Source: an uncultured Acidimicrobiales bacterium
GTDB lineage: Bacteria; Actinomycetota; Acidimicrobiia; Acidimicrobiales; VFJN01
Direction: 5' to 3'
Length of the DNA: 64,000 nt
NCBI GenBank assembly: GCA_963842015.1
Contig: CAWJFG010000016.1
Location: 11,059 to 75,058, forward strand
Positions 11,997-40,764 of the stretch are shown here, piece after piece. Made by a program: the position numbers and the translations under genes. The number at the start of each line of letters is the position of its first letter. The first letter of the stretch is position 1. The notes under the pieces are model-generated. The model made no database searches, was not told the origin of the DNA, and saw nothing but the letters and a program-made list of their open reading frames with translations.

Positions 11997-12014
11997 ATCT
12001 CACCCGGGTGAGAT
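11997..12014. promoter_or_regulatory. Perfect 18-bp palindrome ATCTCACCCGGGTGAGAT in the divergent ABC/LuxR region
   Basis: Read directly from the sequence. It lies between ATG 11947 (minus strand) and the LuxR start candidates at 12008, 12026 and 12035. Confidence 0.5.
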
Positions 12015-24877: not shown

Positions 24878-27718
<2,841 letters not shown>

Positions 27719-27863
27719 CGGCGACAGTTGAAAGGCATCGCGGCGTGACTGTCAAACACCTGGTGGCCAGGACGGCCCTTTCGCCGACCGCCTCGTCCGT
27801 ATCACAGGTACCCACGCCGGGTAGCCCGTGGGGCGCGACGGGCACGACCGAGAGGACACCGAC

Positions 27864-28067
27864 ATGAGCGGTACCGGCGACGACATGAAGGGTCGGGCGA
27901 AGGAGGCCCTCGGGGACCTCACCGACGACGAGCGCCTGCAGCGCGAGGGCAAGGCCGACCGGGCCTCCGGCGCGCTGAAGGACAAGGTGAACGGCGCCAA
28001 GAACTGGGTCGAGGAGAAGATCGACCGCGTCCGGAACAAGGCGCAGCATCACGACGACCGGAGCTGA
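27864..28067 (+). CDS. CsbD-family stress protein
   Basis: It reads MSGTGDDMKGRAKEALGDLTDDERLQREGKADRASGALKDKV. GAGAGGA lies upstream of ATG 27864. Confidence 0.8.
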   Translation: MSGTGDDMKGRAKEALGDLTDDERLQREGKADRASGALKDKVNGAKNWVEEKIDRVRNKAQHHDDRS

Positions 28068-28127
28068 GCAACACCCGACCTCCGGCACCGGCCCACCGCT
28101 CGCGACGACCGCACCGGGGGTCGACTA

Positions 28128-28170
28128 GGGGTCATCCCCGATGGCGGGCGGGGGGACCGCCCGTAGCCTG
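28128..28170 (+). promoter_or_regulatory. Conserved bipartite box GGGGTCATCCCC-N22-CGTAGCCTG (copy 1 of 3)
   Basis: It has the same architecture and the same 22-nt spacing as 29190-29232 and 30598-30640. It lies about 90 nt upstream of ATG 28218. Confidence 0.55.
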
Positions 28171-28217
28171 ACCGTGTCCCCGACCGCCGCCGGGGGCGAC
28201 GGACCCAGGAGGACAGG

Positions 28218-28934
28218 ATGGACGGCATGTCACTGCTCGACGTGCTGCGTGGCGTGATGCTCGACCCGGCTGAACAGGCCGTCTACGACGCCGACCCCGG
28301 CGCGTACCTCGAGCAGTACGGCTACGAGGACGTCGACGCTGCCGACCTGTCCGAGGCGTTCGGGCTCGTCGCCGACACGCTGCCCGCCGACCAGGCGATG
28401 GCGGCGTGGACAGGCGAGTCGGGTCCCGAGTCTCCCCTGCTCGGCGACGACACGACCGACTTCGACGTCGGTGAGCCCGATGACGCCGCTCTGTCCGGCG
28501 ACGACGCGGGTGACCCGATCGACGACCTCGACCACCTCGACGGTTTCGACGGCACCGGCGACCGCGGCGCCGACGCGGACGACTCGGGTGACGAACCGGC
28601 GCTGTCGTTCGGGCGCGGGGACGAGGACGCCGACGACGACGACGCATTGCCCGACGATCTCGACGGCGACCTCGGGCTGTTCGGCACGGCTGCTCCCGAC
28701 GAGATCGACACGGGCGGGCTCGACAGCGCGGATCCCGACGGCGACGGCGACGTCGATCTCGACGACGCGTTCGGCACGTTCGCCGCCGACGACCCCGACG
28801 ACGACCTGGGCGACCACGACGGCCTCGGCCACGGTCTCGCCGACGATGCCGACGACGTCGACGACCTGGCCGAGATCGAGGGGCTGGGACCCGTCGACGA
28901 CGGCCCGGACGAGGTCGACATCGGCTCCTTCTGA
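28218..28934 (+). CDS. IniB-N-terminal-domain protein with a hyper-acidic Asp-rich body
   Basis: GGAGGA is the RBS. The N-terminus M(DG)MSLLDVLRGVMLDPAEQAVYDADPGAYLEQYG resembles the M. tuberculosis IniB N-terminus as I recall it (MTSLIDYILSLFRSEDAARSFV..). The rest is D/G/L low complexity. Confidence 0.6.
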   Translation: MDGMSLLDVLRGVMLDPAEQAVYDADPGAYLEQYGYEDVDAADLSEAFGLVADTLPADQAMAAWTGESGPESPLLGDDTTDFDVGEPDDAALSGDDAGDPIDDLDHLDGFDGTGDRGADADDSGDEPALSFGRGDEDADDDDALPDDLDGDLGLFGTAAPDEIDTGGLDSADPDGDGDVDLDDAFGTFAADDPDDDLGDHDGLGHGLADDADDVDDLAEIEGLGPVDDGPDEVDIGSF

Positions 28935-29004
28935 CGCCCGGACGAGGTCGACATCGGCTCGTTCTGACCGGCCCGGACGAGCTCGACATCGGCTCGTTCC
29001 GACC
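28904..29004 (+). repeat. Three tandem 33-35-bp copies of the gene's 3' end (CCCGGACGAGGTCGACATCGGCTC(C/G)TTCTGAC)
   Basis: Copy 1 encodes ..PDEVDIGSF-stop. Copy 2 is in frame and again reads RPDEVDIGSF-stop. Copy 3 is out of frame. Confidence 0.8.
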
Positions 29005-29025
29005 CCGCTCCGACCCCTCCCCCAC

Positions 29026-29052
29026 GGTGCCCTGCCCCTGCGGCGGGGCACC
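29026..29052 (+). terminator. Hairpin GGTGCCC..GGGCACC downstream of the first iniB-like gene
   Basis: It has a 7-bp GC stem and a 12-nt loop with no T tract, which is common in high-GC Actinobacteria. Confidence 0.4.
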
Positions 29053-29189
29053 GTCGCGTTCGGCCTCGCGGCGCTTGACGCTGCGACTACGGTTGCGCCC
29101 GCACAGCCTCCGGCCGCCGCGACTGGGCGGGGCGCCGGGGGTGGTGCGGTGGGGCGGCGCGATCCCCTAGGGGAGGTTCGGTCGGGCAC

Positions 29190-29232
29190 GGGGTGATCCC
29201 CGATTCCCGACTGACGACCCCACCGTACGTTG
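29190..29232 (+). promoter_or_regulatory. Conserved bipartite box GGGGTGATCCCC-N22-CGTACGTTG (copy 2 of 3)
   Basis: See 28128-28170. It lies about 97 nt upstream of ATG 29287. Confidence 0.55.
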
Positions 29233-29286
29233 CTGACACACACGGTCGCTCGAGAGGCGGGTGGCCCGACAACCAGGAGCGAACCA

Positions 29287-30474
29287 ATGTCCCTCTTCGA
29301 CACCCTGCTCGGCATCTTCACCGACGACGACACGAACACCGAGTTCAACCAGAACCCGTCGGGCTTCCTGAACCAGAACGGGCTCGGGAACGTGACGAGC
29401 CAGGACATCGAGGCCGAGATGCCCCGGGTCCTCGAGGCGATCCAGGGCAACAGCGGCGGTGCGACCCAGGGTGGGGTCGCCAACTTCGCCGGCAGTGGCA
29501 ACGTCACGCTTCCCCCGCCGCCCGTGGGTGGCGGCGAGGGCGGCGGCGAGGGCGGCCTGGCGGGCGCCATCGAGTCGATCAACCACTACACCGACGTCGT
29601 CAACGTCACGAACCAGCAGTTCCAGGACAACGACGTCACCAACATCGACGACTCCGACACCACCGTCGACGCCTCGGTCAACCAGAACATCACCGCCTTC
29701 GGCGATGTGAACCAGGACTTCGACCAGGACGTCGTGACCGGAGACGGGGCCGTGGCCGCCGGCGACAACGCTCAGGTCAACACCGGCGACGGGGCCGTGC
29801 AGGCCGGCGACGACATCGAGGACTCGAACGTCGTCACCGGCAACGTCACCGACTCGGTCCTCGCCGACGACATCAGCGACTCGGTCGTGGGCGACGGCAA
29901 CCAGGTGATCGACGACTCCACGGTCGGCGCGGCCAGCTTCGGCGAGGGCGACGCCACCAACGTCGAGGCCGACAACGCCGTGCTGGGCGACGGCACGCTC
30001 GTCGACGGCGGCAGCGGCGACATCACGCTGAACCAGGGCGAGGGCGACCTCACGCAGATCGACGACTCGACGCTGAGCGAGTCGGTGGTCGGCGACGGCA
30101 CCGTCCAGTCGAACGACGTCACCATCGACGCCGACGACGGCAGCTCGGTCGCCTTCGGCGACGGGTCCACCGCCACCGCCGAGACGCAGGACGTCGACAT
30201 CGACGGCAACTACGGCACCGTCCAGGTCGCCGACGACGCCACGCAGACGGCCAGCACCGACAACTCGGTCAACGACAGCGGCAACCTCGATGCGTCGGTG
30301 AACGACAGCGGCAACATCGATGCCTCCGTGAACGACAGCTACAACATCGAGGACAGCTTCGACACGGCCGACAGCTTCAACACCGACAACTCGGTCGACG
30401 ACAGCGGCAACATCGACGACAGCTTCAACCCCCAGACCACGGTCGAGGACAACGACGTCGTCGACCTCCTCTGA
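29287..30474 (+). CDS. IniB-N-terminal-domain protein with an Asp/Asn/Val/Gly repeat (beta-solenoid-like) body
   Basis: AGGAG is the RBS. It reads MSLFDTLLGIFTDDDTNTEFNQNPSGFLNQNGL, then repeated GDGAV.AGD / DNSVNDSGN.DAS motifs. It has no signal peptide. Confidence 0.65.
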   Translation: MSLFDTLLGIFTDDDTNTEFNQNPSGFLNQNGLGNVTSQDIEAEMPRVLEAIQGNSGGATQGGVANFAGSGNVTLPPPPVGGGEGGGEGGLAGAIESINHYTDVVNVTNQQFQDNDVTNIDDSDTTVDASVNQNITAFGDVNQDFDQDVVTGDGAVAAGDNAQVNTGDGAVQAGDDIEDSNVVTGNVTDSVLADDISDSVVGDGNQVIDDSTVGAASFGEGDATNVEADNAVLGDGTLVDGGSGDITLNQGEGDLTQIDDSTLSESVVGDGTVQSNDVTIDADDGSSVAFGDGSTATAETQDVDIDGNYGTVQVADDATQTASTDNSVNDSGNLDASVNDSGNIDASVNDSYNIEDSFDTADSFNTDNSVDDSGNIDDSFNPQTTVEDNDVVDLL

Positions 30475-30522
30475 TCCTCGGTCGGCACGGCCGACCCGGA
30501 TCGACCGAATGAACGCCGCCAT

Positions 30523-30545
30523 GGCCCCCGGCACCGCCGGGGGCC
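30523..30545 (+). terminator. Hairpin GGCCCCCGG-CACCG-CCGGGGGCC
   Basis: A 9-bp perfect stem lies about 50 nt after the 30474 stop. Confidence 0.5.
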
Positions 30546-30597
30546 GAGGCGCGTGTTCCGGCGACGTCGACCATCCCCCGACAGGGTCCGGGGACAC

Positions 30598-30640
30598 GGG
30601 GTGATCCCCCATGTGCCCGACCGCCGGGCGTCGTACGTTG
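30598..30640 (+). promoter_or_regulatory. Conserved bipartite box GGGGTGATCCCC-N22-CGTACGTTG (copy 3 of 3)
   Basis: See 28128-28170. It lies about 104 nt upstream of ATG 30702. Confidence 0.55.
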
Positions 30641-30701
30641 CGATCACGGCCTCCCGAGCGGGCGAGGCACAAGCAGAGCACGAGCACAGGGAGTGCCAGA
30701 C

Positions 30702-31934
30702 ATGAGCGTCATCGACCTTCTCCTCGACCTGTTCCGCAGCGAAGAGTCGCAGGAGTCCCTCGCCAACGACCCGACCACGTTCCTCAACGAGAACGCACCC
30801 GAGGGCCTCACGGCCGAACAGGTGCTGGCGGCGATGCCCGGCGTGTGCGCCGCGCTGCCGCCCGAGCAGGCCGAGTCGCTGCGCACGGCCTACGGGCTCT
30901 CGAGCGTCGGCGCCTCCGAGGCCGCCTCCGGCGGCGCCGGCGGCGGCGGGGCCTTCGACATCGACCCCTCGGGCGGGCCCGCGGGGCCGCCTCCGGTCGA
31001 CCCGGGTGACAACCCGGTCGAGCAGGTGCTGCAACAGCTCAACTACTACACGACCGTCGTGAACACGACGAACCAGACGTTCGAGGACAACGACGTCACC
31101 AACATCGACGACTCCGACACCACCGTCGACGCCTCGGTCAACCAGAACATCACCGCCTTCGGCGATGTGAACCAGGACTTCGACCAGGACGTCGTGACCG
31201 GCGACGGGGCCGTGGCCGCGGGCGACGACGCTCAGGTCAACACCGGCGACGGGGCCGTGCAGGCCGGCGGCGACATCGAGGACTCGAACGTCGTCACCGG
31301 CGACGTCGAGGGCTCGGTCCTCGCCGACGACATCAGCGACTCGGTCGTGGGCGACGGCAACCAGGTCATCTCCGACTCGACCGTCGGCGCGGCCACGTTC
31401 GGCGAGGGCGACGCCACCAACGTCGAGGCCGACAACGCCGTGCTGGGCGACGGCACGCTGGTCGACGGCGGCAGCGGCGACATCGCTCTGAACCAGGGCG
31501 AGGGCGACCTCACGCAGATCGACGACTCGACGCTGAGCGAGTCGGTGGTCGGCGACGGCACCGTCCAGTCGAACGACGCCGACATCACCGCCGACGACGG
31601 CAGCTCGGTCGCCTTCGGCGACGGGTCCACCGCCACCGCCGAGACGCAGGACGTCGACATCGACGGCAACTACGGCACCGTCCAGGTCGCCGACGACGCC
31701 ACGCAGACGGCCAGCACCGACAACTCGGTCAACGACAGCTACAACGTCGATGCGTCGACGAACGACAGCTTCAACACCGACGTGTCGACCAACGACAGCT
31801 ACAACGTCGAGGACAGCTTCGACACCGCCGACAGCTTCAACACCGACAACTCGGTCGACGACAGCGGCAACGTCGACGACAGCTTCAACCCCCAGACCAC
31901 GGTCGAGGACAACGACGGGATCGACGTCGTCTAG
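30702..31934 (+). CDS. IniB-N-terminal-domain protein, paralogue of 29287-30474
   Basis: It reads MSVIDLLLDLFRSEESQESLANDPTTFLNENAPEGLTAEQV. The body is near-identical to the preceding gene. For example, 31086-31201 is identical to 29626-29741. Confidence 0.65.
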   Translation: MSVIDLLLDLFRSEESQESLANDPTTFLNENAPEGLTAEQVLAAMPGVCAALPPEQAESLRTAYGLSSVGASEAASGGAGGGGAFDIDPSGGPAGPPPVDPGDNPVEQVLQQLNYYTTVVNTTNQTFEDNDVTNIDDSDTTVDASVNQNITAFGDVNQDFDQDVVTGDGAVAAGDDAQVNTGDGAVQAGGDIEDSNVVTGDVEGSVLADDISDSVVGDGNQVISDSTVGAATFGEGDATNVEADNAVLGDGTLVDGGSGDIALNQGEGDLTQIDDSTLSESVVGDGTVQSNDADITADDGSSVAFGDGSTATAETQDVDIDGNYGTVQVADDATQTASTDNSVNDSYNVDASTNDSFNTDVSTNDSYNVEDSFDTADSFNTDNSVDDSGNVDDSFNPQTTVEDNDGIDVV

Positions 31935-31948
31935 CCCGGCCCGACCGG

Positions 31949-31979
31949 GTGCCGGCGGCCCATCTGCGGCCGCCGGCAC
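31949..31979 (+). terminator. Hairpin GTGCCGGCGGCC-CATCTGC-GGCCGCCGGCAC
   Basis: A 12-bp perfect stem lies directly after the 31934 stop. Confidence 0.55.
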
Positions 31980-32041
31980 CGGCGTGCCGGGCCTCGATCC
32001 GTGTGCGTTAACTTGGTTGGTCACCCAAGGGAGCACCAGTC

Positions 32042-33922
32042 ATGGCGGGAGACCCGAACGCCGGCGCACGGTCGCCGGCTGTCCAGAGCGCCCTCAGCGT
32101 CGTCGACCTGGGGCGGCAGGCGAGCACCGCGTACGCGCGCCCCGACCTCACGGCACGCCTCGCCACCACGCGCAAGCGCCTGGCCGACCCGGCGTTCCAC
32201 GTGTTCGTCATCGGCGAGTTCAAGCAGGGGAAGTCGTCGCTGGTCAACGCCCTGCTGAACGCCCCGGTCTGCCCGGTCGACGACGACATCGCCACCTCCG
32301 TCCCCACCGCCATCCGCTTCGGCGAGCCGCCGGCGGCGGCCGTGCTGTTCGACCCGGGCGGCGATCCGTCCGACCCCGACCGCGAGCCCATCCGTGAGGA
32401 GATCGCGGTCGACCGCGTCGCCGGATACGTCACCGAGGCCGCCGACCCCGAGGGCGAGCGGCAGGTGAGCTCCGTCGAGGTGTCGCTGCCCCGCAAGCTG
32501 CTCAGCGACGGCCTCGTCATCGTCGACACGCCGGGGGTGGGCGGGCTGGGCTCGGCGCACAGCGCGGCCACGATCGGCGCCCTGCCGATGGCCGACGCCG
32601 TCGTGTTCGTGTCCGACGCCAGCCAGGAGTTCACCGGCCCCGAGCTCGAGTTCCTCCAGACGGCCCGGCGCATGTGCCCGAACGTCGTGTGCGTCCAGAC
32701 CAAGATCGACTTCTACCCCGCGTGGCGCAAGATCCGCGACCTCAACGTGGGCCACCTCGCGCGGCAGGGCGTGGACGCCGAGATCCTGTGCGTGTCGTCG
32801 TCGTTGCGCATCCACGCGCTGCGGGCCAACGACCGCGAGCTCAACCGCGAGTCGGGGTTCCCCCAGCTCGCCAACTACCTGCAGAACACCATCGCCGCCA
32901 ACGCCGAGCGCCTCAGCGTGCGGGCGGCGGCCAACGACGTCGTGGCCGTGGCCGCCATGCTCGAGGCGCAGTTCCAGAGCGAGCGCCAGGCCCTCGACGA
33001 CCCCGACCAGGCCCAGCAGATGGTCGCCAACCTCACCGAGGCGAAGGCCAAGGCCGAGCGGCTCAAGAGCGGCGTGTCCAAGTGGCAGCAGACGCTCAGC
33101 GACGGTGTGATCGACCTGCAGGCCGACGTCGACCACGACCTGCGCGGCCGCCTCCGCCAGGTGACCCGCCAGGCCGACGAGGCGCTCGAGGCCAGCGACC
33201 CCGGCGAGACGTGGGACGACTTCCAGGCCTGGCTCTACCGACGGGTGGCCGAGGACGTCGTCCACAACTACACGTTCCTCCACTTCCGGGCGCAGGAGCT
33301 CACGGCCCGGGTGGCCGAGCACTTCGGCGAGGACGGCGTCGACATCGTCGTCGACCTCGACGTCGCCAACCCCACCGAGGTGCTGACCACCGTCGACGCC
33401 AACACCGACGTCGACATGCGCAAGATGGGCGTCGGCACCCAGGGGATGGCCGCCCTGCGAGGGAGCTACGGCGGCCTGCTCATGTTCGGCATGCTCGGCC
33501 GCATGGCCGGGCTGGCGATGGCCAACCCGGCCACGATCATCATCGGGTTGTTCATGGGTCGCTCCGCCCTCAAGGGCGAGAAGGATCGCCAGCTCCAGAT
33601 GCGCCGCGGCCAGGCGCGCCAGGCCCACCGCAAGTACACCGACGAGGTCAGCTTCGTCGTGGGCAAGGACTCCCGCGACACGTTGCGCCGCGTGCAGCGG
33701 CGGATGCGCGACTTCTTCGCGGCCCGTGCGGAGGAGCTGCACCGCTCGACCACCGAGGCCCTCGCCGCCGCTCAGCAGGCGGTGAAGTCCGACGCGTCCA
33801 CCCGGCAGAAGCGCCTGCGTGACGTCGACGCCGAGCTCAAGCGCATCGGCGTCCTCCGCGACAAGGCGTACGCCCTCGCGCCCGATCTGAAGCCGGCCAC
33901 GAGCAAGGGAGCGGCGTCGTGA
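32042..33922 (+). CDS. Dynamin-like GTPase (IniA/DynA-type bacterial DLP)
   Basis: It has the P-loop VIGEFKQGKSSLVNALL, G2-G3 motifs IVDTPGVGG, long helical stalk segments, and a hydrophobic paddle GGLLMFGMLGRMAGLAMANPATIIIGLFMG. Confidence 0.8.
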   Translation: MAGDPNAGARSPAVQSALSVVDLGRQASTAYARPDLTARLATTRKRLADPAFHVFVIGEFKQGKSSLVNALLNAPVCPVDDDIATSVPTAIRFGEPPAAAVLFDPGGDPSDPDREPIREEIAVDRVAGYVTEAADPEGERQVSSVEVSLPRKLLSDGLVIVDTPGVGGLGSAHSAATIGALPMADAVVFVSDASQEFTGPELEFLQTARRMCPNVVCVQTKIDFYPAWRKIRDLNVGHLARQGVDAEILCVSSSLRIHALRANDRELNRESGFPQLANYLQNTIAANAERLSVRAAANDVVAVAAMLEAQFQSERQALDDPDQAQQMVANLTEAKAKAERLKSGVSKWQQTLSDGVIDLQADVDHDLRGRLRQVTRQADEALEASDPGETWDDFQAWLYRRVAEDVVHNYTFLHFRAQELTARVAEHFGEDGVDIVVDLDVANPTEVLTTVDANTDVDMRKMGVGTQGMAALRGSYGGLLMFGMLGRMAGLAMANPATIIIGLFMGRSALKGEKDRQLQMRRGQARQAHRKYTDEVSFVVGKDSRDTLRRVQRRMRDFFAARAEELHRSTTEALAAAQQAVKSDASTRQKRLRDVDAELKRIGVLRDKAYALAPDLKPATSKGAAS

Positions 33923-35403
33923 CCCCGTCCACCTCGGCGGCGCTGCTCGACAGCGTCCGCGGACTGCTCGAGCACGCGACGCGGTCGTATGCCGCCACGC
34001 CCGCGGCCGTCCAGCGCCTCCAGGCCGTGCTCGACCGGCTCGACGAGCCGCTGCGCGTCGCCATCGCCGGCAAGGTCAAGGCCGGCAAGTCGACGCTGCT
34101 GAACGCCCTGGTGGGCGAAGAGCTCGCCCCCACCGACGCGGGCGAGTGCACCCGCATCGTGACCTGGTACCGCGACGGCATCACCTACCGGGCGACGCTC
34201 GAGCCGACCCAGGGCGAGCCCCGCCAGGTGCCGTTCACCCGCGACGGCGGCGCCATCTCGATCGATCTCGGCGGCACCGAGCCCGGCGAGATCACGCGGC
34301 TCGTCATCGAGTGGCCGTCGTCGTCGCTGCGACAGATGACGCTCATCGACACGCCGGGCATCGCCTCGCTGTCGACCGACGTCTCGGCCCGCACCACCGC
34401 CTTCCTCACCCCGGGCGAGGACCAGGTCACCCCCGCCGACGCGGTGCTGTACCTGATGCGCCACCTCCACGCCTCCGACATCAACTTCCTCGAGGCGTTC
34501 CACGACGAGGAGTTCTCGCAGGCCACACCGGTCAACGCAGTGGCCGTGCTGTCCCGCGCCGACGAGGTGGGCGTCGGTCGCATCGACTCGATGGCGTCCG
34601 CGCAGCGCATCGCCGGCCGGTACCGCCAGGACCCCAAGGTCCGGCGCCTGGCCCAGACGGTCGTGCCCGTGGCGGGCCTGCTCGCCCAGTCGGGTGCCAC
34701 CCTGCGCGAGGCCGAGTACAAGGCGCTCGACGCCATCGCCTCGGCGCCGCGGGACGACGCCGAGGCCCTGTTCCTGTCGGCCGACCGGTTCGTGCAGGCC
34801 GAGACGCCGATCCCGCTCACGTCGATGGAGCGCGAGCACCTGCTCGACCGGTTCGGCCTGTTCGGGGTCCGACTCGCGGTGGCCCTCATCCGGCAGGGGG
34901 CGGCCGCCACCGCCACCGCCCTGTCCACCGAGCTGGTCCGCCGCAGCGGCCTGGTCGAGCTGCGCGACGTGCTGCTCAGCCAGTTCGCCCAACGCCGTGA
35001 CGTGCTCAAGGCTCGGTCGGCGCTGCTGGCCCTCGAGTCGGTGCTGCACGAGCACCCCGTGTCCGACCGGGACGTGCTGGCGTCCGAGCTCGAGCGCATC
35101 ACCGCCGCGGCCCACGAGTTCGCGGAGATCCGGTTGCTCAACGCGCTGCGGGCCGGAGGCGTGAAGGTCAAGCCCGCCGAGGCCACCGAGATGGAGCGCC
35201 TGCTGGGCGCCGAGGGCACCGCGATGCACGTGCGCCTCGGCCTCAGCCCCGAGGCAGACACGTCCGAGGTGCGGCGGGCCCTCGGCAACGCCATCGGGCG
35301 CTGGCAGCGCCGGGCCGAGAGCCCGATGTCCTCGCGTGAGGTGGCCGACGCGGCGAGAGTGGTGATACGTACCTGCGAAGGGCTGCTCGTCTCGCTGGGG
35401 TGA
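33919..35403 (+). CDS. Dynamin-like GTPase (IniC/DynB-type)
   Basis: It has the P-loop AIAGKVKAGKSTLLNALVG and LIDTPGIAS. It overlaps the upstream stop by 4 nt. Confidence 0.8.
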   Translation: MTPSTSAALLDSVRGLLEHATRSYAATPAAVQRLQAVLDRLDEPLRVAIAGKVKAGKSTLLNALVGEELAPTDAGECTRIVTWYRDGITYRATLEPTQGEPRQVPFTRDGGAISIDLGGTEPGEITRLVIEWPSSSLRQMTLIDTPGIASLSTDVSARTTAFLTPGEDQVTPADAVLYLMRHLHASDINFLEAFHDEEFSQATPVNAVAVLSRADEVGVGRIDSMASAQRIAGRYRQDPKVRRLAQTVVPVAGLLAQSGATLREAEYKALDAIASAPRDDAEALFLSADRFVQAETPIPLTSMEREHLLDRFGLFGVRLAVALIRQGAAATATALSTELVRRSGLVELRDVLLSQFAQRRDVLKARSALLALESVLHEHPVSDRDVLASELERITAAAHEFAEIRLLNALRAGGVKVKPAEATEMERLLGAEGTAMHVRLGLSPEADTSEVRRALGNAIGRWQRRAESPMSSREVADAARVVIRTCEGLLVSLG

Positions 35404-37058
35404 GCGGCGACGGCGGAAGGTTCACGGGGGAGGGGAACGCGCAGGTGTCCACGCAGCACGAGGGCGACCGCGACGCGCCTGCGGACGCTGACGGCGACCG
35501 CGCCGGAGACGGGGACGGGGACGGACCCGATCCCGACGCGGCCACGGTCTCTCCCGAGGACTGGCACGAGACCGAGCGTTGGCTCGACGAGTGGACCCGG
35601 CCCTCCGCCGATCCCGGCGCCGGCGACGAGGAGAGCGCCCAGGACGGCGACCCGGCCGCCACCACGGCGGATGCCCCCGACGGGCTCGCCCCCGAGGGGG
35701 AGCCCGTGGCTGCCGGGTTCTGGCCTCAGGAGTACAAGCCCCCGCCCTCGCCTGCCTACGCGCCCGGCGGCCCGCCGTCCCCGCAGTTCACCCGCTCGAC
35801 CCCGGCGCCCCGCCCGGCCGCGCCGACGCCGGCCTCGCCGCCGACACCGCCTCCACCCCCGCCCGACGCCGGGTTGCGCGCCGCCCCGGTCTCCCGCGGG
35901 CGCCAGCGTGCCGGACAGCTGCTGTTCGCAGGCCTCGCCCTGGCGGTGGCGGCTCTGGCGTCGGTCACCCTGCTCATGATCGACGGCGACGACAGCCCCC
36001 GGACGGTAGCGCTCGGCGAGGTCTGGGCGGCCGGGGCGGGGGCGACCGTCCGCTCCGGCGCCGCCTCACGGCCCCTCGAGGCCGGCGAGCAGATCGTGTC
36101 CGGCGACGTCGTCCAGGCAGCCTCGGCGGGAGCGGTCACGGTCGACCTCGAAGGCGGCGGTGTCGTGCGCTTCGACACCGGCGCGAGCGTCACGTTCATC
36201 GACGACGCCATCGACGCCGAGACGGGCGAGCGTGACGGCGACAGCGAGCCGGCGCTGCAGATCCTCGCCGGGCGGGCATGGGTCAACCCCGCCGACGGCA
36301 CCACCGTCGAGGTGCGGCTCCCGGGGGGCCGGGCGACCACGGTGGCCAACCCGTTGGCGATCGAGTGCCCTGGCGACTGCACGCTCCACGCCCCGGCGGC
36401 GGGGGTCGACATCGACAGCGACGGCGGGGGCGACGCGGCGCCGATCCCGAGCGAGATCGTGACCCTGCGGCCCGACGGCGGCATGAGCCTCGCCGTCGAT
36501 TCGCCCGAGACGGCGTGGGCGCAGCAGAACCTCGACGCCGACCGGAGCGCGGGCCTGCCCGACGCCGAACCGGGCGACGACCCCGGCGTCGTGGCGTCGG
36601 CCGTGTTCGACGGCGTGTACCCGTTCCGCATCGACGTCACGGGCGCGCCGACCGGCGACCCGCTGCCCGAGGCTCTGATCTACGGCGCGGGCGAGAGCTA
36701 CTCGCTCGAGCTGCACGCCGACGGCAGCGCCTGCCCGCCGACCTCCTGCGAGCTGCCGGTGACCGCGGCCGACGGCGCCACCGGGACGGCCGACGTGGGT
36801 GACGGCACCCTCACGGTCAGGTTCACCCAGCCCATCAACTGCTACGACGAGTCACGCGACAACGTGGTCGTCGCCGGCATCGGCACGACCACGGTCACGG
36901 CCGAGCTGGCGGTGGGCGGCGTGACCCAGGACGGTCCTCGCTGGCGCGTCCTCACCTCGTCGGGCGCGGGCACCGTGTCGACGACGCTCACGACGCCGTG
37001 CAACCCCGGCGACGTGCTCGGCACGTCCTCGTCGTCCACCTCTGTCGCCCTCGGCTGA
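35400..37058 (+). CDS. Single-pass membrane protein with an acidic/Pro-rich cytoplasmic N-terminus and a FecR-like extracytoplasmic domain
   Basis: The GTG start overlaps the DLP stop (GTGA). The TM segment is LLFAGLALAVAALASVTLLMI. VSGDVVQAASAGAVTVDLEGGGVVRFDTGASVTF resembles the FecR sensor fold. The domain call is tentative. Confidence 0.55.
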   Translation: MSGDGGRFTGEGNAQVSTQHEGDRDAPADADGDRAGDGDGDGPDPDAATVSPEDWHETERWLDEWTRPSADPGAGDEESAQDGDPAATTADAPDGLAPEGEPVAAGFWPQEYKPPPSPAYAPGGPPSPQFTRSTPAPRPAAPTPASPPTPPPPPPDAGLRAAPVSRGRQRAGQLLFAGLALAVAALASVTLLMIDGDDSPRTVALGEVWAAGAGATVRSGAASRPLEAGEQIVSGDVVQAASAGAVTVDLEGGGVVRFDTGASVTFIDDAIDAETGERDGDSEPALQILAGRAWVNPADGTTVEVRLPGGRATTVANPLAIECPGDCTLHAPAAGVDIDSDGGGDAAPIPSEIVTLRPDGGMSLAVDSPETAWAQQNLDADRSAGLPDAEPGDDPGVVASAVFDGVYPFRIDVTGAPTGDPLPEALIYGAGESYSLELHADGSACPPTSCELPVTAADGATGTADVGDGTLTVRFTQPINCYDESRDNVVVAGIGTTTVTAELAVGGVTQDGPRWRVLTSSGAGTVSTTLTTPCNPGDVLGTSSSSTSVALG

Positions 37059-37130
37059 CCCCGGCGCACCCTCGGGTCGGACGGGCTCGGTCACCGGGCC
37101 CGCGCCGAGGCCGCGGCACCGCCGCGACCG

Positions 37131-39221
37131 TCACAGCGCGGCGTCGGGCGGCAGCTCGGGGATCGCGGGTCCTTCGGAGGCCGGGGGCCGGTGCGGGGGC
37201 GCCAGCGGGTTGGGTTCGGCGGCGATGGCGTCGAGCAGGGCCTGCCCGAGCCAGGCGTCGGCCACCTCGTACGCGGTCTGCAGCGTGAAGTGCACGCCGT
37301 CGGCGCGCAGGTCGTCGTCCATCTCGCCGCCCGGCTGGCCCGCGAGGTAGCCCGGCAGGTCGACGGTCACCGCACCCTGGCGCTCGTCGGCCACCCGTTG
37401 CACGATCTCGTTGAGGCGATCCATCCGGGCGGGGTCGGACTCGGGGTAGGGGTCCTCGGGCGGCGGTTCCTCGTTGGCGCCGATGTCGATGTGTGGCGCC
37501 AACACCCACACGACGACCAGGCCCTGGTCCATGAAGGCGTCGGTCACGGCCGCGAACTCGTGGGCGAGGAAGTCGTCGTAGACCGGATCACCCGGGGCGC
37601 GCCACTCGTCGTCTCCGGGGAGCCGGCGGTCGGTGACCTCCCACGGCCCGGTCTGGATCACCGCGAAGTCGAGGTGCCCGTAGGCGTCGCGGATCCGTTG
37701 CGCCTCGGAGGGGATGGTGTCGACCCAGGCCTCGCACCCCGCGGGCACGGTTCCGACATCGCCTCGCGACCGTCGTTCGCCGCCGCGCGACACCGAGCAG
37801 CCGAGGGCTCCTGTGAGGTTGGCGGGCGGCAACACGAGGGCCTCGGTCTCGTTGCCCCACGCGCTGAGGCCCAGGCCGGTCTGCAGCATCGTCGAGTCGC
37901 CGAAGGCCATGCCGATCTGAGCGTCGGCCGGGACCTGGGGCGGGTAGAGGAACTTGGTGTCGTCGTAGAGCGCCTGGACCTGCTCGTCGATGCCGTCGCT
38001 CGGTTCGGGAGGCACGACCACCCCGACCACCGTCACGAGCACGACCGCCCCGCCCGCGACCGCGGCCATGGGCACCCGGGGCAGCGACCACCCGCGCCGG
38101 ATGGGCAATTCGAGCAGGAAGTACGACACCGTCGCCACCGCCAGCGTGACCGCGAGGCGCACGCCGAACAGGGGCACCCGGTCGAGGCCCGTGCGCTGGC
38201 CGTCGAGCACCAGGAAGATCGGCCAGTGCACGAGGTAGACGCCGTAGGAGATGAGGCCGAGCAGCCGCAGCGGCTCGATGGCGAGGGCGCGCCGTACCGG
38301 CCCCGGCACGCAGGCCGCCAGCACGAGCGTGCCCGACAGCAGGGCGTACACCAGGAGCCCGCCGCGCGAGATGAAGGGCGTCTCCTGTTCGAGGTTCCAC
38401 CAGCACCACACCATCGCGACGAGGGCGATGACCCCCGCGACGGCGGCCAGGCGTGGCACGGCGCGGAGGCCGGTGAGCCCGACCGACACGGCCACCGCCA
38501 GCAGCGACCCGACCAGGATCTCGCCCATGCGGGTGTAGGTGGCGTAGTAGACGGTGGTGCTCTCGCTGAACCCGAGCATGGCCGTCGCCACGGCCGACAC
38601 GGCCAGCAGTGCGGCCAGCACCCCGGCGTAGACCTTCACCGAGCCGCGGCCGACCAGGAACACGCCGGCGCTGAGCAGCGGGAACAGCCAGTAGAACTGC
38701 TCCTCGATCGCCAACGACCAGAAGTGCAGCACCGGCGACGGCGAGGCGAAGAGGTCGGCGTAGCTCTGGTCGTCGAACAGGAAGCGCCAGTTGGCGACCT
38801 GGAGCCCCGAGGCCACGATGTCGCCCGAGAGCCCCTCGGTGCGGAGGTCGACGAACACCAGCGACCCGAACGCGACCGCCAGGAGCGTGACCACCGAGGC
38901 GGGGAACAACCGCCGCAGCCGCCGGGCCCAGAAGGCGCCGAGCGAGATGCGTCCGTTGGCGCCGTGCTCGCCGAGGAGCAGGGACGTGATCAGGAAGCCC
39001 GACAGCGTGAAGAACGTGGACACCCCGAGGTAGCCGCCCCGGGCCCACGGGAAACCGGCGTGGAAGAGCAGGACGACGCCGACGGCGATCCCGCGGATGC
39101 CGTCGAGGGCCGGGTTGTAGCTGAGGCGCCACCCGCGGGCCGCGGACCGCTCGACCGGGCGCTCGCCACCGGTCTCGTCGACCCCGGGGGGCCGCTCGAT
39201 CACGTTGGTCGCTTCGTCCAT
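37131..39221 (-). CDS. Acyltransferase-3 (OafA/YrhL-like) membrane protein with a C-terminal SGNH domain
   Basis: From ATG 39221 the motifs include NPALDGIRGIAVGVVLLFH, YLGVSTFFTLSGFLIT and HFWSLAIEEQFY. About 10 TM segments follow, then an SGNH-like tail. Confidence 0.85.
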   Translation of the reverse strand: MDEATNVIERPPGVDETGGERPVERSAARGWRLSYNPALDGIRGIAVGVVLLFHAGFPWARGGYLGVSTFFTLSGFLITSLLLGEHGANGRISLGAFWARRLRRLFPASVVTLLAVAFGSLVFVDLRTEGLSGDIVASGLQVANWRFLFDDQSYADLFASPSPVLHFWSLAIEEQFYWLFPLLSAGVFLVGRGSVKVYAGVLAALLAVSAVATAMLGFSESTTVYYATYTRMGEILVGSLLAVAVSVGLTGLRAVPRLAAVAGVIALVAMVWCWWNLEQETPFISRGGLLVYALLSGTLVLAACVPGPVRRALAIEPLRLLGLISYGVYLVHWPIFLVLDGQRTGLDRVPLFGVRLAVTLAVATVSYFLLELPIRRGWSLPRVPMAAVAGGAVVLVTVVGVVVPPEPSDGIDEQVQALYDDTKFLYPPQVPADAQIGMAFGDSTMLQTGLGLSAWGNETEALVLPPANLTGALGCSVSRGGERRSRGDVGTVPAGCEAWVDTIPSEAQRIRDAYGHLDFAVIQTGPWEVTDRRLPGDDEWRAPGDPVYDDFLAHEFAAVTDAFMDQGLVVVWVLAPHIDIGANEEPPPEDPYPESDPARMDRLNEIVQRVADERQGAVTVDLPGYLAGQPGGEMDDDLRADGVHFTLQTAYEVADAWLGQALLDAIAAEPNPLAPPHRPPASEGPAIPELPPDAAL

Positions 39222-39333
39222 CAATGGCCCCCAGTGCCACGGCTCGCCGCGAGCCGGTGCCCGGGCCGAGATGGCAGACGGGGACGCGGCGAGGCACCCC
39301 GTCCCCGCGCCGAGAGTAGTCGGGAGGTGGGGG

Positions 39334-40512: not shown

Positions 40513-40764
40513 GGTGGTGCTTCCCCCCGAGGTGAGGTCGGTACGAACGAAACCGAGGCTACCCAGGGCCCGGCGGGTTCCCGAAACCCGGCGGCCCCGC
40601 CCGGTCGTGGTCCGGCCGGGCCGCCCGGGTGCCCGGTGGCCGAGCGTGGAATACTTTCCCGCGGTCCCTGGTGGCTCCCCGCGGGGCAGCGCCGAGGGCT
40701 GGGGACGCCGCCTGCCGCCCGCGGACGGCCGGCCGCCGGAGGAGACGGTGACATCGCAGTCGAG

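What the first reader, a model, noticed from the sequence alone, without database searches (positions are those of the whole stretch)
28128..37058. Expanded ini-like locus: three IniB-N-domain hyper-acidic repeat proteins, two dynamin-like GTPases and a coupled FecR-like membrane protein
The mycobacterial iniBAC operon has one Gly/Ala-rich IniB plus the dynamin-like IniA and IniC. Here the IniB-type N-terminal domain (MS.ID.LL.LF....) heads three separate genes. Their bodies are extremely Asp/Asn-rich instead. One is D/G/L low complexity. Two carry roughly 300 aa of GDGAV.AGD / DNSVNDSGN.DAS repeats that suggest a beta-solenoid or Ca-binding fold. None has a signal peptide. Each has its own promoter box and terminator hairpin. 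The two DLP genes overlap by 4 nt, and a third gene is coupled by GTGA. That gene encodes a Pro-rich, single-pass protein with a FecR-like outer domain and has no counterpart in the described iniBAC operon. This composition looks like an uncharacterised variant of a membrane-stress or remodelling system.
Basis: partly seen in the sequence, partly recalled or inferred. Interest (0 to 1): 0.7.

Follow-up and report, generated by a model that had tools for sequence, protein, structure and literature searches.

The report
Acidimicrobiales version of the iniBAC cassette
This is the version, in uncultured Acidimicrobiales bacteria, of the actinobacterial IniB–IniA–IniC membrane-remodelling gene cluster known from the tuberculosis bacillus, with three acidic IniB-type genes that share a conserved control box and one extra lineage-specific membrane protein; it is a variant of a known, catalogued system, not a new kind.

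Summary
IniA (32042-33922) is a clear orthologue of mycobacterial IniA (PDB 6J72, E=1e-119). A second dynamin-like GTPase of IniC size (33919-35403) overlaps it by GTGA. Three upstream genes (g1, g2, g3) carry the IniB N-terminal domain. Their scores are significant but below NCBIfam's curated cut-off; all 38 aligned relatives match the model. Each has a conserved box, GGGGnGATCCCCGATG, then 20 nt, then TAnnnT, and each is followed by a GC-rich hairpin.

The locus is syntenic in at least 15 Acidimicrobiales genomes. It is less unusual than proposed. Acidic Asp/Asn-rich IniB proteins next to a dynamin pair are common in cultured Micrococcales and already named by RefSeq and Pfam (PF27122). Tandem IniB paralogues occur there too, and the same box precedes them.

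The beta-solenoid or calcium-binding idea got no support: AlphaFold pLDDT was 44, no repeat family matched, and the 5-residue periodicity was not significant. The FecR-like call for the sixth protein is weakly supported by Foldseek and by faint Pfam hits in relatives. That gene is confined to this clade, evolves fast, and occurs without the ini genes in one genome.

New here: gene conversion homogenises the g2 and g3 bodies while their heads stay distinct.

The parts
28128..28169 (+). Promoter-like region of g1: box GGGGTCATCCCCGATG (28128-28143), 20-nt spacer, TAGCCT (28164-28169).
   Evidence: The 12-mer has exact matches only at three sites in the window. Position and sequence are conserved in about 11 species.
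28218..28934 (+). g1: a 238-aa IniB-N protein. It has a 65-aa head that is nearly invariant among orthologues, a variable hyper-acidic D/G/L linker, and a conserved C-terminal PDDxDIGSF (DIGSF in 11 of 12 orthologues).
   Evidence: NF038175 at 27.6 bits, E=2e-6. The head HMM gives E=5e-10. Orthologue alignment. Composition.
28901..29007 (+). Tandem triplication (period 33-35 nt) of the 3' end of g1, including its stop codon.
29024..29054 (+). GC-rich hairpin downstream of g1, without a T tract.
   Evidence: RNAfold. Hairpins at the equivalent place in orthologous loci.
29190..29231 (+). Promoter-like region of g2: box GGGGTGATCCCCGATT, 20-nt spacer, TACGTT (29226-29231). A distal ATCCCCTAGGGGA palindrome lies just upstream.
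29287..30474 (+). g2: a 395-aa acidic IniB-family protein made of a head, a Gly/Pro linker, a conserved hinge motif, a D/N/G/V/T-rich body and a DNS/DSF repeat tail.
   Evidence: NF038175 at 37.8 bits. 318 homologues, many with precomputed PF27122 IniB. AF2 is confident only for the helical head.
30505..30561 (+). GC-rich hairpin downstream of g2.
   Evidence: The arm sequence differs between species while the pairing is kept.
30598..30639 (+). Promoter-like region of g3: box GGGGTGATCCCCCATG, 20-nt spacer, TACGTT (30634-30639).
30702..31934 (+). g3: a 410-aa acidic IniB-family paralogue. Its head is only 31% identical to the g2 head; its body is 93% identical to the g2 body.
   Evidence: NF038175 at 31.0 bits. 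Regional identities.
29599..30474 (+). Gene-conversion tract in g2, whose partner tract is 31059-31934 in g3. DNA identity jumps from about 50% to 85-100% in 60-nt windows at this boundary.
   Evidence: The within-genome body identity of 79-99% equals or exceeds the between-species orthologue identity of 71-83% in 10 genomes.
31935..31991 (+). Strong GC hairpin (-50.6 kcal/mol) between g3 and iniA.
   Evidence: Equivalent hairpins with different arm sequences occur in 8 of 9 loci.
32003..32014 (+). Conserved G.GTTAGCGTTG-type element (window sequence GTGCGTTAACTT; TAACTT at 32009-32014) about 30 nt upstream of iniA. It is a possible separate -10 element for iniA-iniC-g6.
   Evidence: Intergenic alignment of 12 loci. 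Inference only.
32042..33922 (+). IniA orthologue: a 626-aa bacterial dynamin-like GTPase with GEFKQGKS, DTPG and TKID motifs and a hydrophobic membrane-proximal segment around residue 488.
   Evidence: PDB 6J72 at E=1.2e-119 over residues 22-614. Dynamin_N at 75.7 bits. Hydropathy.
33919..35403 (+). IniC-like second DLP of 494 aa. Its start overlaps the iniA stop (GTGA).
   Evidence: Dynamin_N at 47.7 bits. BDLP 2J68 at E=5e-8. Junction sequence. 89-96% identical across the clade.
35400..37058 (+). g6: a single-pass membrane protein. The conserved start is probably GTG 35445. It has an acidic, Pro-rich cytoplasmic tail with an invariant PPSPAYA motif, a TM helix at about residues 168-192, and an ectodomain (about 204-552) with six invariant Cys.
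27864..28067 (+). CsbD-like small stress protein directly upstream (context only).
   Evidence: Pfam CsbD at 56.6 bits.

Best explanation
The locus is the Acidimicrobiales form of the actinobacterial IniB-IniA-IniC module, a system for cytoplasmic-membrane remodelling and envelope stress.

Shown here:
- IniA is an orthologue of the structurally solved mycobacterial fission DLP.
- A second DLP of IniC size is translationally coupled to it.
- Three genes with the IniB N-terminal domain lie upstream as separate units. Each has the same conserved upstream box plus a TAnnnT element, a conserved leader hairpin and a trailing GC hairpin.
- The box also accompanies IniB genes in Micrococcales, where a STAND/LuxR regulator with the same C-terminal LuxR/GerE HTH and similar size as mycobacterial IniR lies immediately upstream.

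Inferred:
- The box, centred about 43 nt upstream of the deduced start site, with extra ATCCCC half-sites further upstream, is the operator of an IniR-type activator. It switches on all three IniB paralogues together.
- The trailing hairpins and separate promoters let the IniB proteins be made in excess over the DLPs.
- iniA-iniC(-g6) are transcribed by read-through and/or from their own weak promoter.
- The ~50-aa helical IniB-N head is the common docking module, for the DLP pair or for the membrane site they act on. The acidic bodies are the payload or scaffold.
- g2 and g3 keep two different heads, implying two different partners or sites, while gene conversion keeps their bodies the same. 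That pattern fits bodies that must work, or co-assemble, as one material.
- g1 looks like an adaptor: a head, a disordered acidic linker and a conserved C-terminal DIGSF peptide.
- g6 is a clade-specific, probably co-transcribed envelope protein with a FecR-like sensor-type outer domain. It may localise or modulate the system but is not an obligate part of it.
For: - IniA: 6J72 at E=1.2e-119. Both DLPs pass Dynamin_N, and they overlap by GTGA.
- IniB-N. Orthologues are named 'IniB N-terminal domain-containing protein' and carry PF27122 IniB.
- Synteny: the order topA(-)|g1|g2|g3|iniA|iniC|g6 holds across the Acidimicrobiales loci.
- Box: only upstream of g1, g2 and g3 in the window. It is conserved in position and sequence in about 11 species.
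- Box elsewhere: it is upstream of IniB genes in Arthrobacter, Georgenia, Agromyces, an unnamed Logan contig encoding the protein RefSeq lists under '[Micrococcus luteus] ATCC 49442', and a further MAG.
- Regulator: in three of those four Micrococcales loci an HSP70-like gene and a STAND/LuxR gene precede IniB (in L026 the first gene carries no Pfam hit). This matches the dnaK-like/iniR arrangement described for M. smegmatis (PMC5760070).
- Stoichiometry: hairpins follow each IniB gene in most species. In mycobacteria RNA-seq suggests IniB in excess over IniA and IniC (PMC5760070).
- Function of the DLPs: IniA and IniC are both needed for membrane-vesicle release, and IniA carries out fission (PMC10240201, PMC6715688).
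- Paralogue pattern: heads 29-44% identical and bodies 79-99% identical within genomes, with a sharp conversion boundary. The same pattern is seen by inspection in Georgenia.
Against: - No experiment exists for any non-mycobacterial member.
- The IniB-N scores of the window's own proteins are below NCBIfam's curated cut-off.
- No IniR-like regulator is adjacent here. The two STAND/LuxR genes in the window resemble the Micrococcales regulators only in the ~50-aa HTH.
- The box could instead be the -35 region of an alternative sigma factor.
- Nothing tested here shows that the IniB-N head contacts a DLP.
- The body did not fold in AF2, so its physical nature is unknown.
- IniB is dispensable for vesicle production in M. 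smegmatis, which lacks it.
- g6 occurs without ini genes in L008.
Confidence: 0.7

Rival explanations
1. The three acidic proteins are exported cargo or envelope material, not cytoplasmic partners. On this reading the IniB-N head is a signal for unconventional export, such as loading into DLP-generated membrane vesicles or a dedicated secretion route. Outside the cell, the Asp/Asn-rich bodies bind divalent cations or form a surface matrix.
For: Mycobacterial IniB is reported as vesicle cargo and has been called a membrane or cell-wall protein (PMC10240201, PMC6715688). [quoted passage not shown] The proteins have extreme acidity and D/N/G/S motifs. Strong individual promoters and hairpins fit abundant structural products.
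Against: None has a signal peptide or hydrophobic segment. No secretion genes lie in the locus. No Ca-binding repeat family is detected. Nothing here tests localisation.
Confidence: 0.2
2. g6 is not part of the ini system. It is an independent envelope protein, possibly working with the neighbouring AT3/SGNH acyltransferase, next to which the five-gene ini block happens to sit in this clade.
For: L008 has topA(-), csbD, g6 and the acyltransferase(-) with no ini genes and no box in the spacer. g6 diverges much faster than IniA and IniC: 37-48% identity in most loci (76% in L012), against 79-96%. It is tandemly duplicated in several genomes. Ini cassettes in Micrococcales and L023 lack it. Its conserved start is probably not overlapped with iniC.
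Against: It lies on the same strand within about 0-50 nt of the iniC stop in several of the loci examined (larger gaps in others, e.g. 263 nt), with no hairpin or box between. Co-transcription is therefore likely.
Confidence: 0.45
3. The DLP pair is an anti-phage 'dynamin' defence system of the LeoA/LeoBC type, with accessory proteins.
For: The PADLOC LeoA and LeoBC models hit IniA at 64 and 63 bits, and IniC at 47 and 37 bits.
Against: These are generic BDLP similarities; the match to IniA is 403 bits. The locus sits in a conserved housekeeping neighbourhood (holB, tmk, topA). It has the same order and 79-96% protein identity across species, which is unlike a mobile defence island.
Confidence: 0.05
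4. The acidic bodies are DNA mimics acting on the neighbouring topoisomerase I, by analogy with acidic pentapeptide-repeat proteins such as MfpA.
For: topA is adjacent in this clade. The proteins carry a strong negative charge. The strongest spectral peak of hydrophobic residues is near a 5-residue period.
Against: The period-5 signal is not significant against shuffles (p 0.02-0.4; no member of 38 at p<=0.01). There is no Pentapeptide Pfam hit. In Micrococcales and L023 the same proteins travel with the DLP pair and not with topA.
Confidence: 0.02

Closest known systems
Mycobacterial iniB*(Rv0340)-iniB-iniA-iniC cluster with its activator IniR
   Same: There is an IniA orthologue (E=1e-119 to 6J72), with a second, shorter DLP immediately downstream. 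Upstream genes are headed by the IniB N-terminal domain, and more than one such gene is present (iniB* and iniB in mycobacteria). IniB-type genes appear to be expressed separately or more strongly than the DLPs.
   Different: There are three IniB-N genes, each apparently with its own promoter and hairpin, instead of one iniBAC promoter. The bodies are Asp/Asn-rich with pI about 4, instead of Gly/Ala-rich. No IniR-type gene is adjacent. An extra membrane protein, g6, follows iniC. The host is an Acidimicrobiales lineage, a class separate from the mycolic-acid-bearing mycobacteria (own knowledge).
Micrococcales cassettes of [HSP70-like]-STAND/LuxR-IniB(-IniB2)-DLP-DLP (Arthrobacter, Georgenia, Agromyces and an unnamed contig encoding the '[M. 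luteus] ATCC 49442' protein). These are annotated in databases only.
   Same: The protein family is the same acidic IniB family: head, hinge motif (..DDRDTxxDQSVNQNIWAxGDVTQxFDN..) and DSFN/DNS repeat tail. The DLP pair overlaps in the same way. The same upstream box, GGGG-N5-7-CCCGATG-N21-TAnnnT, is present. In Georgenia there are two tandem paralogues whose bodies look nearly identical by inspection.
   Different: There the regulator and the HSP70-like gene are adjacent (except in Arthrobacter pigmenti, where an ArsR-type HTH gene lies upstream); here they are not. There is no g1-type short adaptor in the loci examined (a g1-like gene does exist in MAG L023). There is no g6.
Other paired bacterial dynamin-like proteins (Nostoc BDLP, Campylobacter DLP1/DLP2, E. 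coli LeoA/B/C, Streptomyces DynA/DynB)
   Same: Two adjacent DLP genes are expected to act as a hetero-complex on membranes.
   Different: Sequence similarity is confined to the generic BDLP level (2J68 E=3e-17, 5OWV E=3.5e-6). None of the descriptions of those systems read here mentions IniB-type partners.
FecR/PupR-type transmembrane anti-sigma regulators
   Same: g6 is single-pass with its N-terminus in the cytoplasm. The membrane-proximal outer domain of g6 gives FecR/PupR periplasmic domains as its best structural matches.
   Different: No anti-sigma N-domain is detected; the tail is disordered, acidic and Pro-rich. No ECF sigma gene is adjacent. An additional C-terminal all-beta domain with conserved cysteines is present. 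The window protein has no FecR Pfam hit.

Membership tests
iniBAC-type cassette | IniA: a BDLP with a GTPase domain plus neck and trunk helical bundles and a membrane-interacting distal segment. | tested here: met
   phmmer against PDB gives 6J72 at E=1.2e-119, aligned over residues 22-614. Dynamin_N scores 75.7 bits. The motifs GEFKQGKS, DTPG and TKID can be read in the sequence. The hydrophobic maximum is at residue 488.
iniBAC-type cassette | IniC: a second, shorter DLP encoded directly downstream of iniA. | tested here: met
   The protein is 494 aa with Dynamin_N at 47.7 bits against a cut-off of 27. Its start overlaps the iniA stop. It is 27% identical to IniA in the GTPase domain. Direct orthology to M. 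tuberculosis IniC could not be tested because no IniC sequence or structure was available.
iniBAC-type cassette | IniB N-terminal domain (NCBIfam NF038175; Pfam PF27122) on the upstream gene or genes. | tested here: met
   E-values are 2e-6, 1.3e-9 and 1.8e-7, but the bit scores of 27.6, 37.8 and 31.0 are below the curated cut-off of 40. All 38 family members match, best E 2e-14, and 7 also hit the Rv0340 family model. Orthologues carry precomputed PF27122 IniB hits, marked weak or faint, and RefSeq's IniB-N name. g1 is found by an independent head HMM at E=5e-10.
iniBAC-type cassette | A Gly/Ala-rich IniB body, as in M. tuberculosis. | tested here: not met
   The bodies have D+E of 20-33%, N up to 10% and pI about 4. 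This is the form that is common in Micrococcales.
iniBAC-type cassette | A dedicated STAND/LuxR activator (IniR) encoded next to the cluster. | tested here: not met
   The neighbours are topA, csbD and an acyltransferase. The STAND/LuxR genes at 12008-14230 and 45247-47943 match the Micrococcales IniB-adjacent regulators only over about 50 aa of HTH.
iniBAC-type cassette | Induction by cell-envelope stress. | not testable with these tools
   This needs transcriptomics in a cultured relative.
FecR/PupR-type regulators | FecR domain (PF04773) in the extracytoplasmic part. | tested here: inconclusive
   The window protein has no Pfam hit at E<=10. Five of 17 homologues hit FecR, best E 0.0034. 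The top Foldseek matches are 4m0n, 4m0h and 6ovk_R, with prob 1.00 but E of 3e-3 to 1e-2 and TM-score about 0.49; no match has E<=1e-3.
FecR/PupR-type regulators | A cytoplasmic anti-sigma domain and an adjacent ECF sigma gene. | tested here: not met
   Residues 1-167 are disordered in AF2 except for helix 52-66, and have no Pfam or NCBIfam hit. No sigma-factor gene was found among the adjacent genes that were scanned.
Beta-solenoid or Ca-binding repeat proteins (pentapeptide, RTX and similar) | A match to a repeat family, a regular repeat period, or a confidently predicted solenoid. | tested here: not met
   No Pfam family matches at E<=1. AF2 with 38 sequences gives pLDDT 44 and pTM 0.17, with the body below 50. 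The period-5 peak is not significant: no member of 38 reaches p<=0.01. DNA tandem repeats occur only in the tail.
Leo-type dynamin anti-phage system (PADLOC) | LeoA and LeoBC proteins in a defence-island context. | tested here: inconclusive
   The LeoA and LeoBC models hit at 37-64 bits, far below the IniA match. The context is a conserved housekeeping region.

The most novel reading that the evidence does not exclude
The IniB box (GGGG-N5-7-CCCGATG-N20-21-TAnnnT) and the acidic IniB family may together form an ancient, pan-actinobacterial envelope-stress regulon, of which the mycobacterial iniBAC operon is a derived special case. On this reading, the paired IniB paralogues carry different heads that each address a different DLP (IniA or IniC). 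Gene conversion forces their bodies to stay identical because they co-assemble into one polyanionic scaffold or coat at the remodelled membrane. g1 bridges the assembly through its C-terminal DIGSF peptide, and g6 reports wall status from outside.
Probability: 0.15. Interest if true: 0.7.

Novelty: new variant of a known kind. Interest (0 to 1): 0.4.

Why it matters
IniB is the least understood product of the operon most strongly induced by the cell-wall drugs isoniazid and ethambutol in M. tuberculosis. This locus and its relatives show three things:
- The IniB head, a DLP pair and a specific upstream box travel together across at least two actinobacterial classes.
- Acidic Asp/Asn-rich bodies are common outside mycobacteria, whose Gly/Ala-rich IniB may therefore be a derived form.
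- Paralogous heads are kept distinct while bodies are homogenised.

These are concrete, testable leads for what IniB does and how the system is controlled. They can be followed in easy, non-pathogenic cultured hosts such as Arthrobacter or Georgenia. The Acidimicrobiales locus itself adds little beyond a lineage-specific extra membrane protein.

Tried and rejected
- Exact-sequence look-ups of the window's own IniA and g6 found nothing on record. The source contig is therefore not identified, and taxonomy rests on homologues.
- The sigma-70 and terminator consensus scan found nothing.
- The Rfam scan of 27000-38000 returned only sub-threshold chance miRNA hits, so the conserved leaders are not a known RNA family.
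- The AF2 model of g2 was too poor for a fold search, so none was run.
- A profile of the g6 family against PDB sequences gave only a marginal hit, E=0.058, to the N-terminal region of the Marinomonas ice-binding adhesin (PDB 5IX9). This is consistent with the weak NCBIfam retention_LapA hit but not decisive.
- My first attempt to test hairpin covariation with RNAalifold used wrong coordinates and is uninformative. It was replaced by per-locus folding.
- The Alland 2000 promoter paper is not held. I therefore could not check whether the box exists in the M. tuberculosis iniBAC promoter. The HpoR site described for that promoter, CAGAC-N7-TGTCTG, is different.
- Literature searches for IniB-like proteins outside mycobacteria, and for dynamins in Acidimicrobiia, returned no papers.
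- The DNA-mimic/topA idea and the anti-phage reading were considered and set aside (see rivals).

Full report
**What is there.**
The window has about 72% G+C. Its homologues come from uncultured Acidimicrobiales. Between topA on the minus strand (24878-27718) and an AT3/SGNH acyltransferase on the minus strand (37131-39374) lie, on the plus strand:
- a CsbD-like gene (27864-28067);
- g1 (28218-28934), g2 (29287-30474) and g3 (30702-31934);
- an IniA-like gene (32042-33922) and an IniC-like gene (33919-35403);
- g6 (35400 or 35445 to 37058).

All have coding-type GC3 of 0.90-0.97.

**The dynamin-like GTPases.**
The 626-aa protein aligns with M. smegmatis IniA (PDB 6J72) over residues 22-614 at E=1.2e-119. 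It passes Pfam Dynamin_N at 75.7 bits. The P-loop, DTPG and TKID motifs are visible in the sequence. Its most hydrophobic stretch is at residue 488, within the segment that aligns to the distal hydrophobic stretch of IniA's trunk.

The 494-aa protein passes Dynamin_N at 47.7 bits. It matches Nostoc BDLP at E=5e-8 and is 27% identical to IniA in the GTPase domain. It starts with a GTG that overlaps the iniA stop, behind an AAGGGAG ribosome-binding site. By size, position and family it is IniC-like. Direct orthology to M. tuberculosis IniC could not be tested.

**The three IniB-N proteins.**
NCBIfam NF038175 hits all three with E from 2e-6 to 1.3e-9. The bit scores of 27.6, 37.8 and 31.0 are below the curated cut-off of 40. 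At the family level the assignment is solid:
- All 38 aligned homologues hit the model, best E 2e-14, and seven also hit the Rv0340-family model.
- Orthologues carry Pfam PF27122, named 'IniB', and RefSeq's name 'IniB N-terminal domain-containing protein'.
- An HMM built only from g2/g3-type heads finds g1 at E=5e-10 and nothing else in the 64 kb window.

AF2 predicts the head as four short helices with pLDDT 63-79.

All three proteins are hyper-acidic, with pI about 4 and K+R of 1.3% or less. None has a signal peptide or hydrophobic segment.

g1 has a nearly invariant 65-aa head, a variable acidic linker, and a conserved C-terminal PDDxDIGSF (DIGSF in 11 of 12 orthologues).

g2 and g3 consist of a head, a Gly/Pro linker, a strongly conserved hinge motif, a D/N/G/V/T-rich body and a DNS/DSF repeat tail.

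**Repeats and fold.**
DNA-level tandem repeats exist only in the tails (30264-30451 and 31715-31911; periods 18, 30, 48 and 66 nt) and at the 3' end of g1. The roughly 220-aa body is compositionally biased but is a conserved unique sequence. It holds most of the alignment's 45 invariant columns.

Its hydrophobic pattern has its highest spectral peak near 5 residues. This is not significant against shuffles: p ranges from 0.02 to 0.4 in most of the members listed, and no member of 38 reaches p<=0.01.

No Pfam repeat family matches. AF2 with 38 sequences gives pLDDT 44 and pTM 0.17. The beta-solenoid or Ca-binding proposal is therefore unsupported, though not excluded.

**Cis elements.**
The 12-mer GGGGTSATCCCC occurs exactly three times in the window, each about 100 nt upstream of g1, g2 or g3.

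An alignment of 33 upstream regions from 12 loci shows a shared architecture:
- GGGGnGaTCCCCGATG;
- about 20 nt of spacer;
- (C)GTAnnnTG;
- a gene-specific conserved leader hairpin;
- AGGAG and then ATG.

The box is absent upstream of iniA, iniC and g6.

Each of the three genes is followed by a GC-rich hairpin of -30 to -50 kcal/mol without a T tract. This holds in most species, and the arm sequences differ while pairing is kept.

The g3-iniA spacer also contains a conserved G.GTTAGCGTTG element about 30 nt upstream of iniA. This may be a separate -10 element.

The consensus scan finds no canonical promoters or terminators, and Rfam finds nothing.

The box centre lies about 43 nt upstream of the deduced start site, and additional ATCCCC half-sites occur further upstream. 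That suits an activator site abutting the -35 region. An alternative-sigma -35 element is not excluded.

**Concerted evolution.**
Within each of 10 genomes the g2 and g3 heads are only 29-44% identical, while the bodies are 79-99% and the tails 61-95% identical. Body identity within a genome equals or exceeds that between orthologues of different species, which are 71-83% (body) and 33-68% (tail).

In the window, DNA identity jumps from about 50% to 85-100% (in 60-nt windows) at 29599 in g2 and 31059 in g3, and stays high to the stop codons. Gene conversion thus homogenises the bodies while two distinct heads are preserved.

**Distribution.**
A scan of one genome per GTDB species with the g6 profile returned 17 loci, all from Acidimicrobiales-type MAGs (one titled only 'Actinomycetota bacterium').

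The order topA(-)|g1|g2|g3|iniA|iniC|g6|acyltransferase(-) is kept wherever the contig is long enough. In some loci a second g6 copy and a thiolase gene follow g6 in place of the acyltransferase. Identity to the window:

| Protein | Identity to window |
|---|---|
| IniA | 79-94% |
| IniC | 89-96% |
| g2 | 65-75% |
| g3 | 60-72% |
| g1 | 44-62% |
| g6 | 37-48% in most loci; 76% in L012 |

g6 is tandemly duplicated in several genomes.

Locus L008 has topA(-), csbD, g6 and the acyltransferase(-) with no ini genes and no box in between.

A profile of the g2/g3 family against 1.84 billion representative proteins found only 369 clusters. The distant members share the head and the hinge motif.

One distant member is a RefSeq protein of Arthrobacter pigmenti. 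A search from it shows that acidic IniB-N proteins are common in cultured Micrococcales: Arthrobacter, Pseudarthrobacter, Paenarthrobacter, Georgenia, Agromyces, Cryobacterium and a strain deposited as '[Micrococcus luteus] ATCC 49442'. Nearly all of those listed carry PF27122.

Their loci read [HSP70-like]-STAND/LuxR-IniB(-IniB2)-DLP-DLP, with overlapping DLP genes and no g6. In Arthrobacter pigmenti an ArsR-type HTH gene lies upstream instead.

This matches the dnaK-like/iniR/iniB*/iniBAC layout described for mycobacteria (PMC5760070).

The same box, GGGG-N5-7-CCCGATG-N21-TAnnnT, precedes these IniB genes. In Agromyces only the box is evident.

Georgenia has two tandem paralogues whose bodies look nearly identical on inspection of the sequences. 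MAG L023 has a g1-like gene plus an IniB gene, both behind the box.

The window's two STAND/LuxR genes (12008-14230 and 45247-47943) resemble the Micrococcales regulators only in the HTH. The regulator for this clade is therefore unidentified.

**g6.**
Only 26 homologues were found, all unnamed. The alignment shows four features:
- an acidic, Pro-rich N-terminal region with an invariant PPSPAYA motif;
- a DWxETERWLDEW helix in the closer relatives;
- one transmembrane helix;
- a roughly 350-aa ectodomain with six invariant cysteines.

AF2 gives pLDDT about 90 for residues 200-552 and disorder for most of residues 1-199.

The best Foldseek matches are FecR-family periplasmic domains (4m0n and 4m0h; PupR 6ovk_R). 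They have probability 1.00 but E of 3e-3 to 1e-2 and TM-score about 0.49; no match has E<=1e-3.

Pfam FecR hits 5 of 17 homologues weakly, best E 0.0034, and does not hit the window protein.

There is no detectable anti-sigma domain and no sigma-factor gene among the adjacent genes scanned. The C-terminal half is an all-beta domain of undetermined affinity.

Most homologues start at the position of GTG 35445, which is preceded by GGAGG. The GTGA overlap at 35400 is therefore probably not the real start.

**Interpretation.**
The locus is the Acidimicrobiales form of a widespread actinobacterial IniB-IniA-IniC module.

By established work on mycobacteria, IniA carries out membrane fission (PMC6715688). 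IniA and IniC are both needed for vesicle release. IniB is of unknown function, is absent from some species and is reported as vesicle cargo (PMC10240201). The operon is switched on by IniR under envelope stress (PMC5760070).

I infer that the box is the operator of an IniR-type activator and that the IniB paralogues are made in excess. I also infer that the head is a docking module, and that the homogenised bodies act as one material.

The main rivals are that the acidic proteins are exported cargo, and that g6 is an unrelated neighbour. An anti-phage reading (PADLOC Leo models at 37-64 bits) and a DNA-mimic reading were considered and are unlikely.

**Novelty.**
No paper in the held library describes IniB-type proteins outside mycobacteria or dynamins in Acidimicrobiia. 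The family is nevertheless already catalogued by NCBIfam, Pfam and RefSeq.

The locus is a new variant of a known kind. Its own peculiarities are three separately promoted IniB-N genes and the clade-specific g6.

The more general by-products are the cross-class box, the gene conversion of the bodies and the g1 C-terminal motif. These are the parts worth following up.

Noticed in passing
window 28901-29007: The last ~33 nt of g1, including its TGA stop, are repeated three times in tandem (period 33-35 nt, about 90% identical). The second copy is in frame and would encode RPDEVDIGSF-stop again after the real stop. This looks like slipped duplication of the C-terminal motif.
   Followed up: partly
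window 29599-30474 and 31059-31934: There is a sharp gene-conversion boundary between g2 and g3. DNA identity is about 50% upstream of it and 85-100% (60-nt windows) downstream. The same head-distinct, body-identical pattern holds in 10 Acidimicrobiales genomes and appears, by inspection, in Georgenia sp. AZ-5 (L025 6001-7140 and 7341-8528).
   Followed up: yes
L022 about 9876, L024 about 5900, L025 about 5901 and 7235, L026 about 5895, L023 about 8825 and 9907: The box-plus-TAnnnT architecture seen upstream of g1, g2 and g3 also precedes IniB-type genes in Micrococcales and in a further MAG. The invariant core is CCCGATG, 20-21 nt before the TAnnnT element. A distal CCCCTAGGGG-like palindrome often lies about 25-30 nt further upstream.
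   Followed up: partly
window 27864-28067; L022 17183-17356; L008 9122-9306: A CsbD-like small stress-protein gene sits directly upstream of g1. One is also about 2 kb from the Arthrobacter pigmenti ini cassette. In L008 it stays next to g6 although the ini genes are missing.
   Followed up: no
window 12008-14230 and 45247-47943: Two STAND-type AAA ATPase plus LuxR/GerE regulators share the domain architecture of IniR. They lie 14 kb upstream and 8 kb downstream of the locus. They match the Micrococcales IniB-adjacent regulators only in the HTH.
   Followed up: partly
L008 8900-11400: One Acidimicrobiales species representative has topA(-), csbD, g6 and the acyltransferase(-) with the whole g1-g3/iniA/iniC block absent and no box remnant in the 455-nt spacer.
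   Followed up: partly
L009, L010, L016, L017, L020 and a JGI contig: g6 is tandemly duplicated, in two or three copies about 30% identical to each other, in several related genomes.
   Followed up: no
window about 40700-42820: A second AT3-type acyltransferase appears split. An ORF ending at 41967 reads like an AT3 N-terminal region by inspection of its translation. An overlapping ORF at 41858-42820 in another frame carries the SGNH/GDSL domain. L001 has a single 672-aa AT3 gene at the same place. This may be a frameshift or an assembly error.
   Followed up: no
L024 1744-5835, L025 1118-5628, L026 1139-5784, L023 1571-8746: HSP70/DnaK-like genes accompany the regulator-IniB-DLP cassettes in Micrococcales, and there are three of them in MAG L023 (in L026 the gene in that position has no Pfam hit). 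This echoes the dnaK-like gene next to iniR in M. smegmatis.
   Followed up: no
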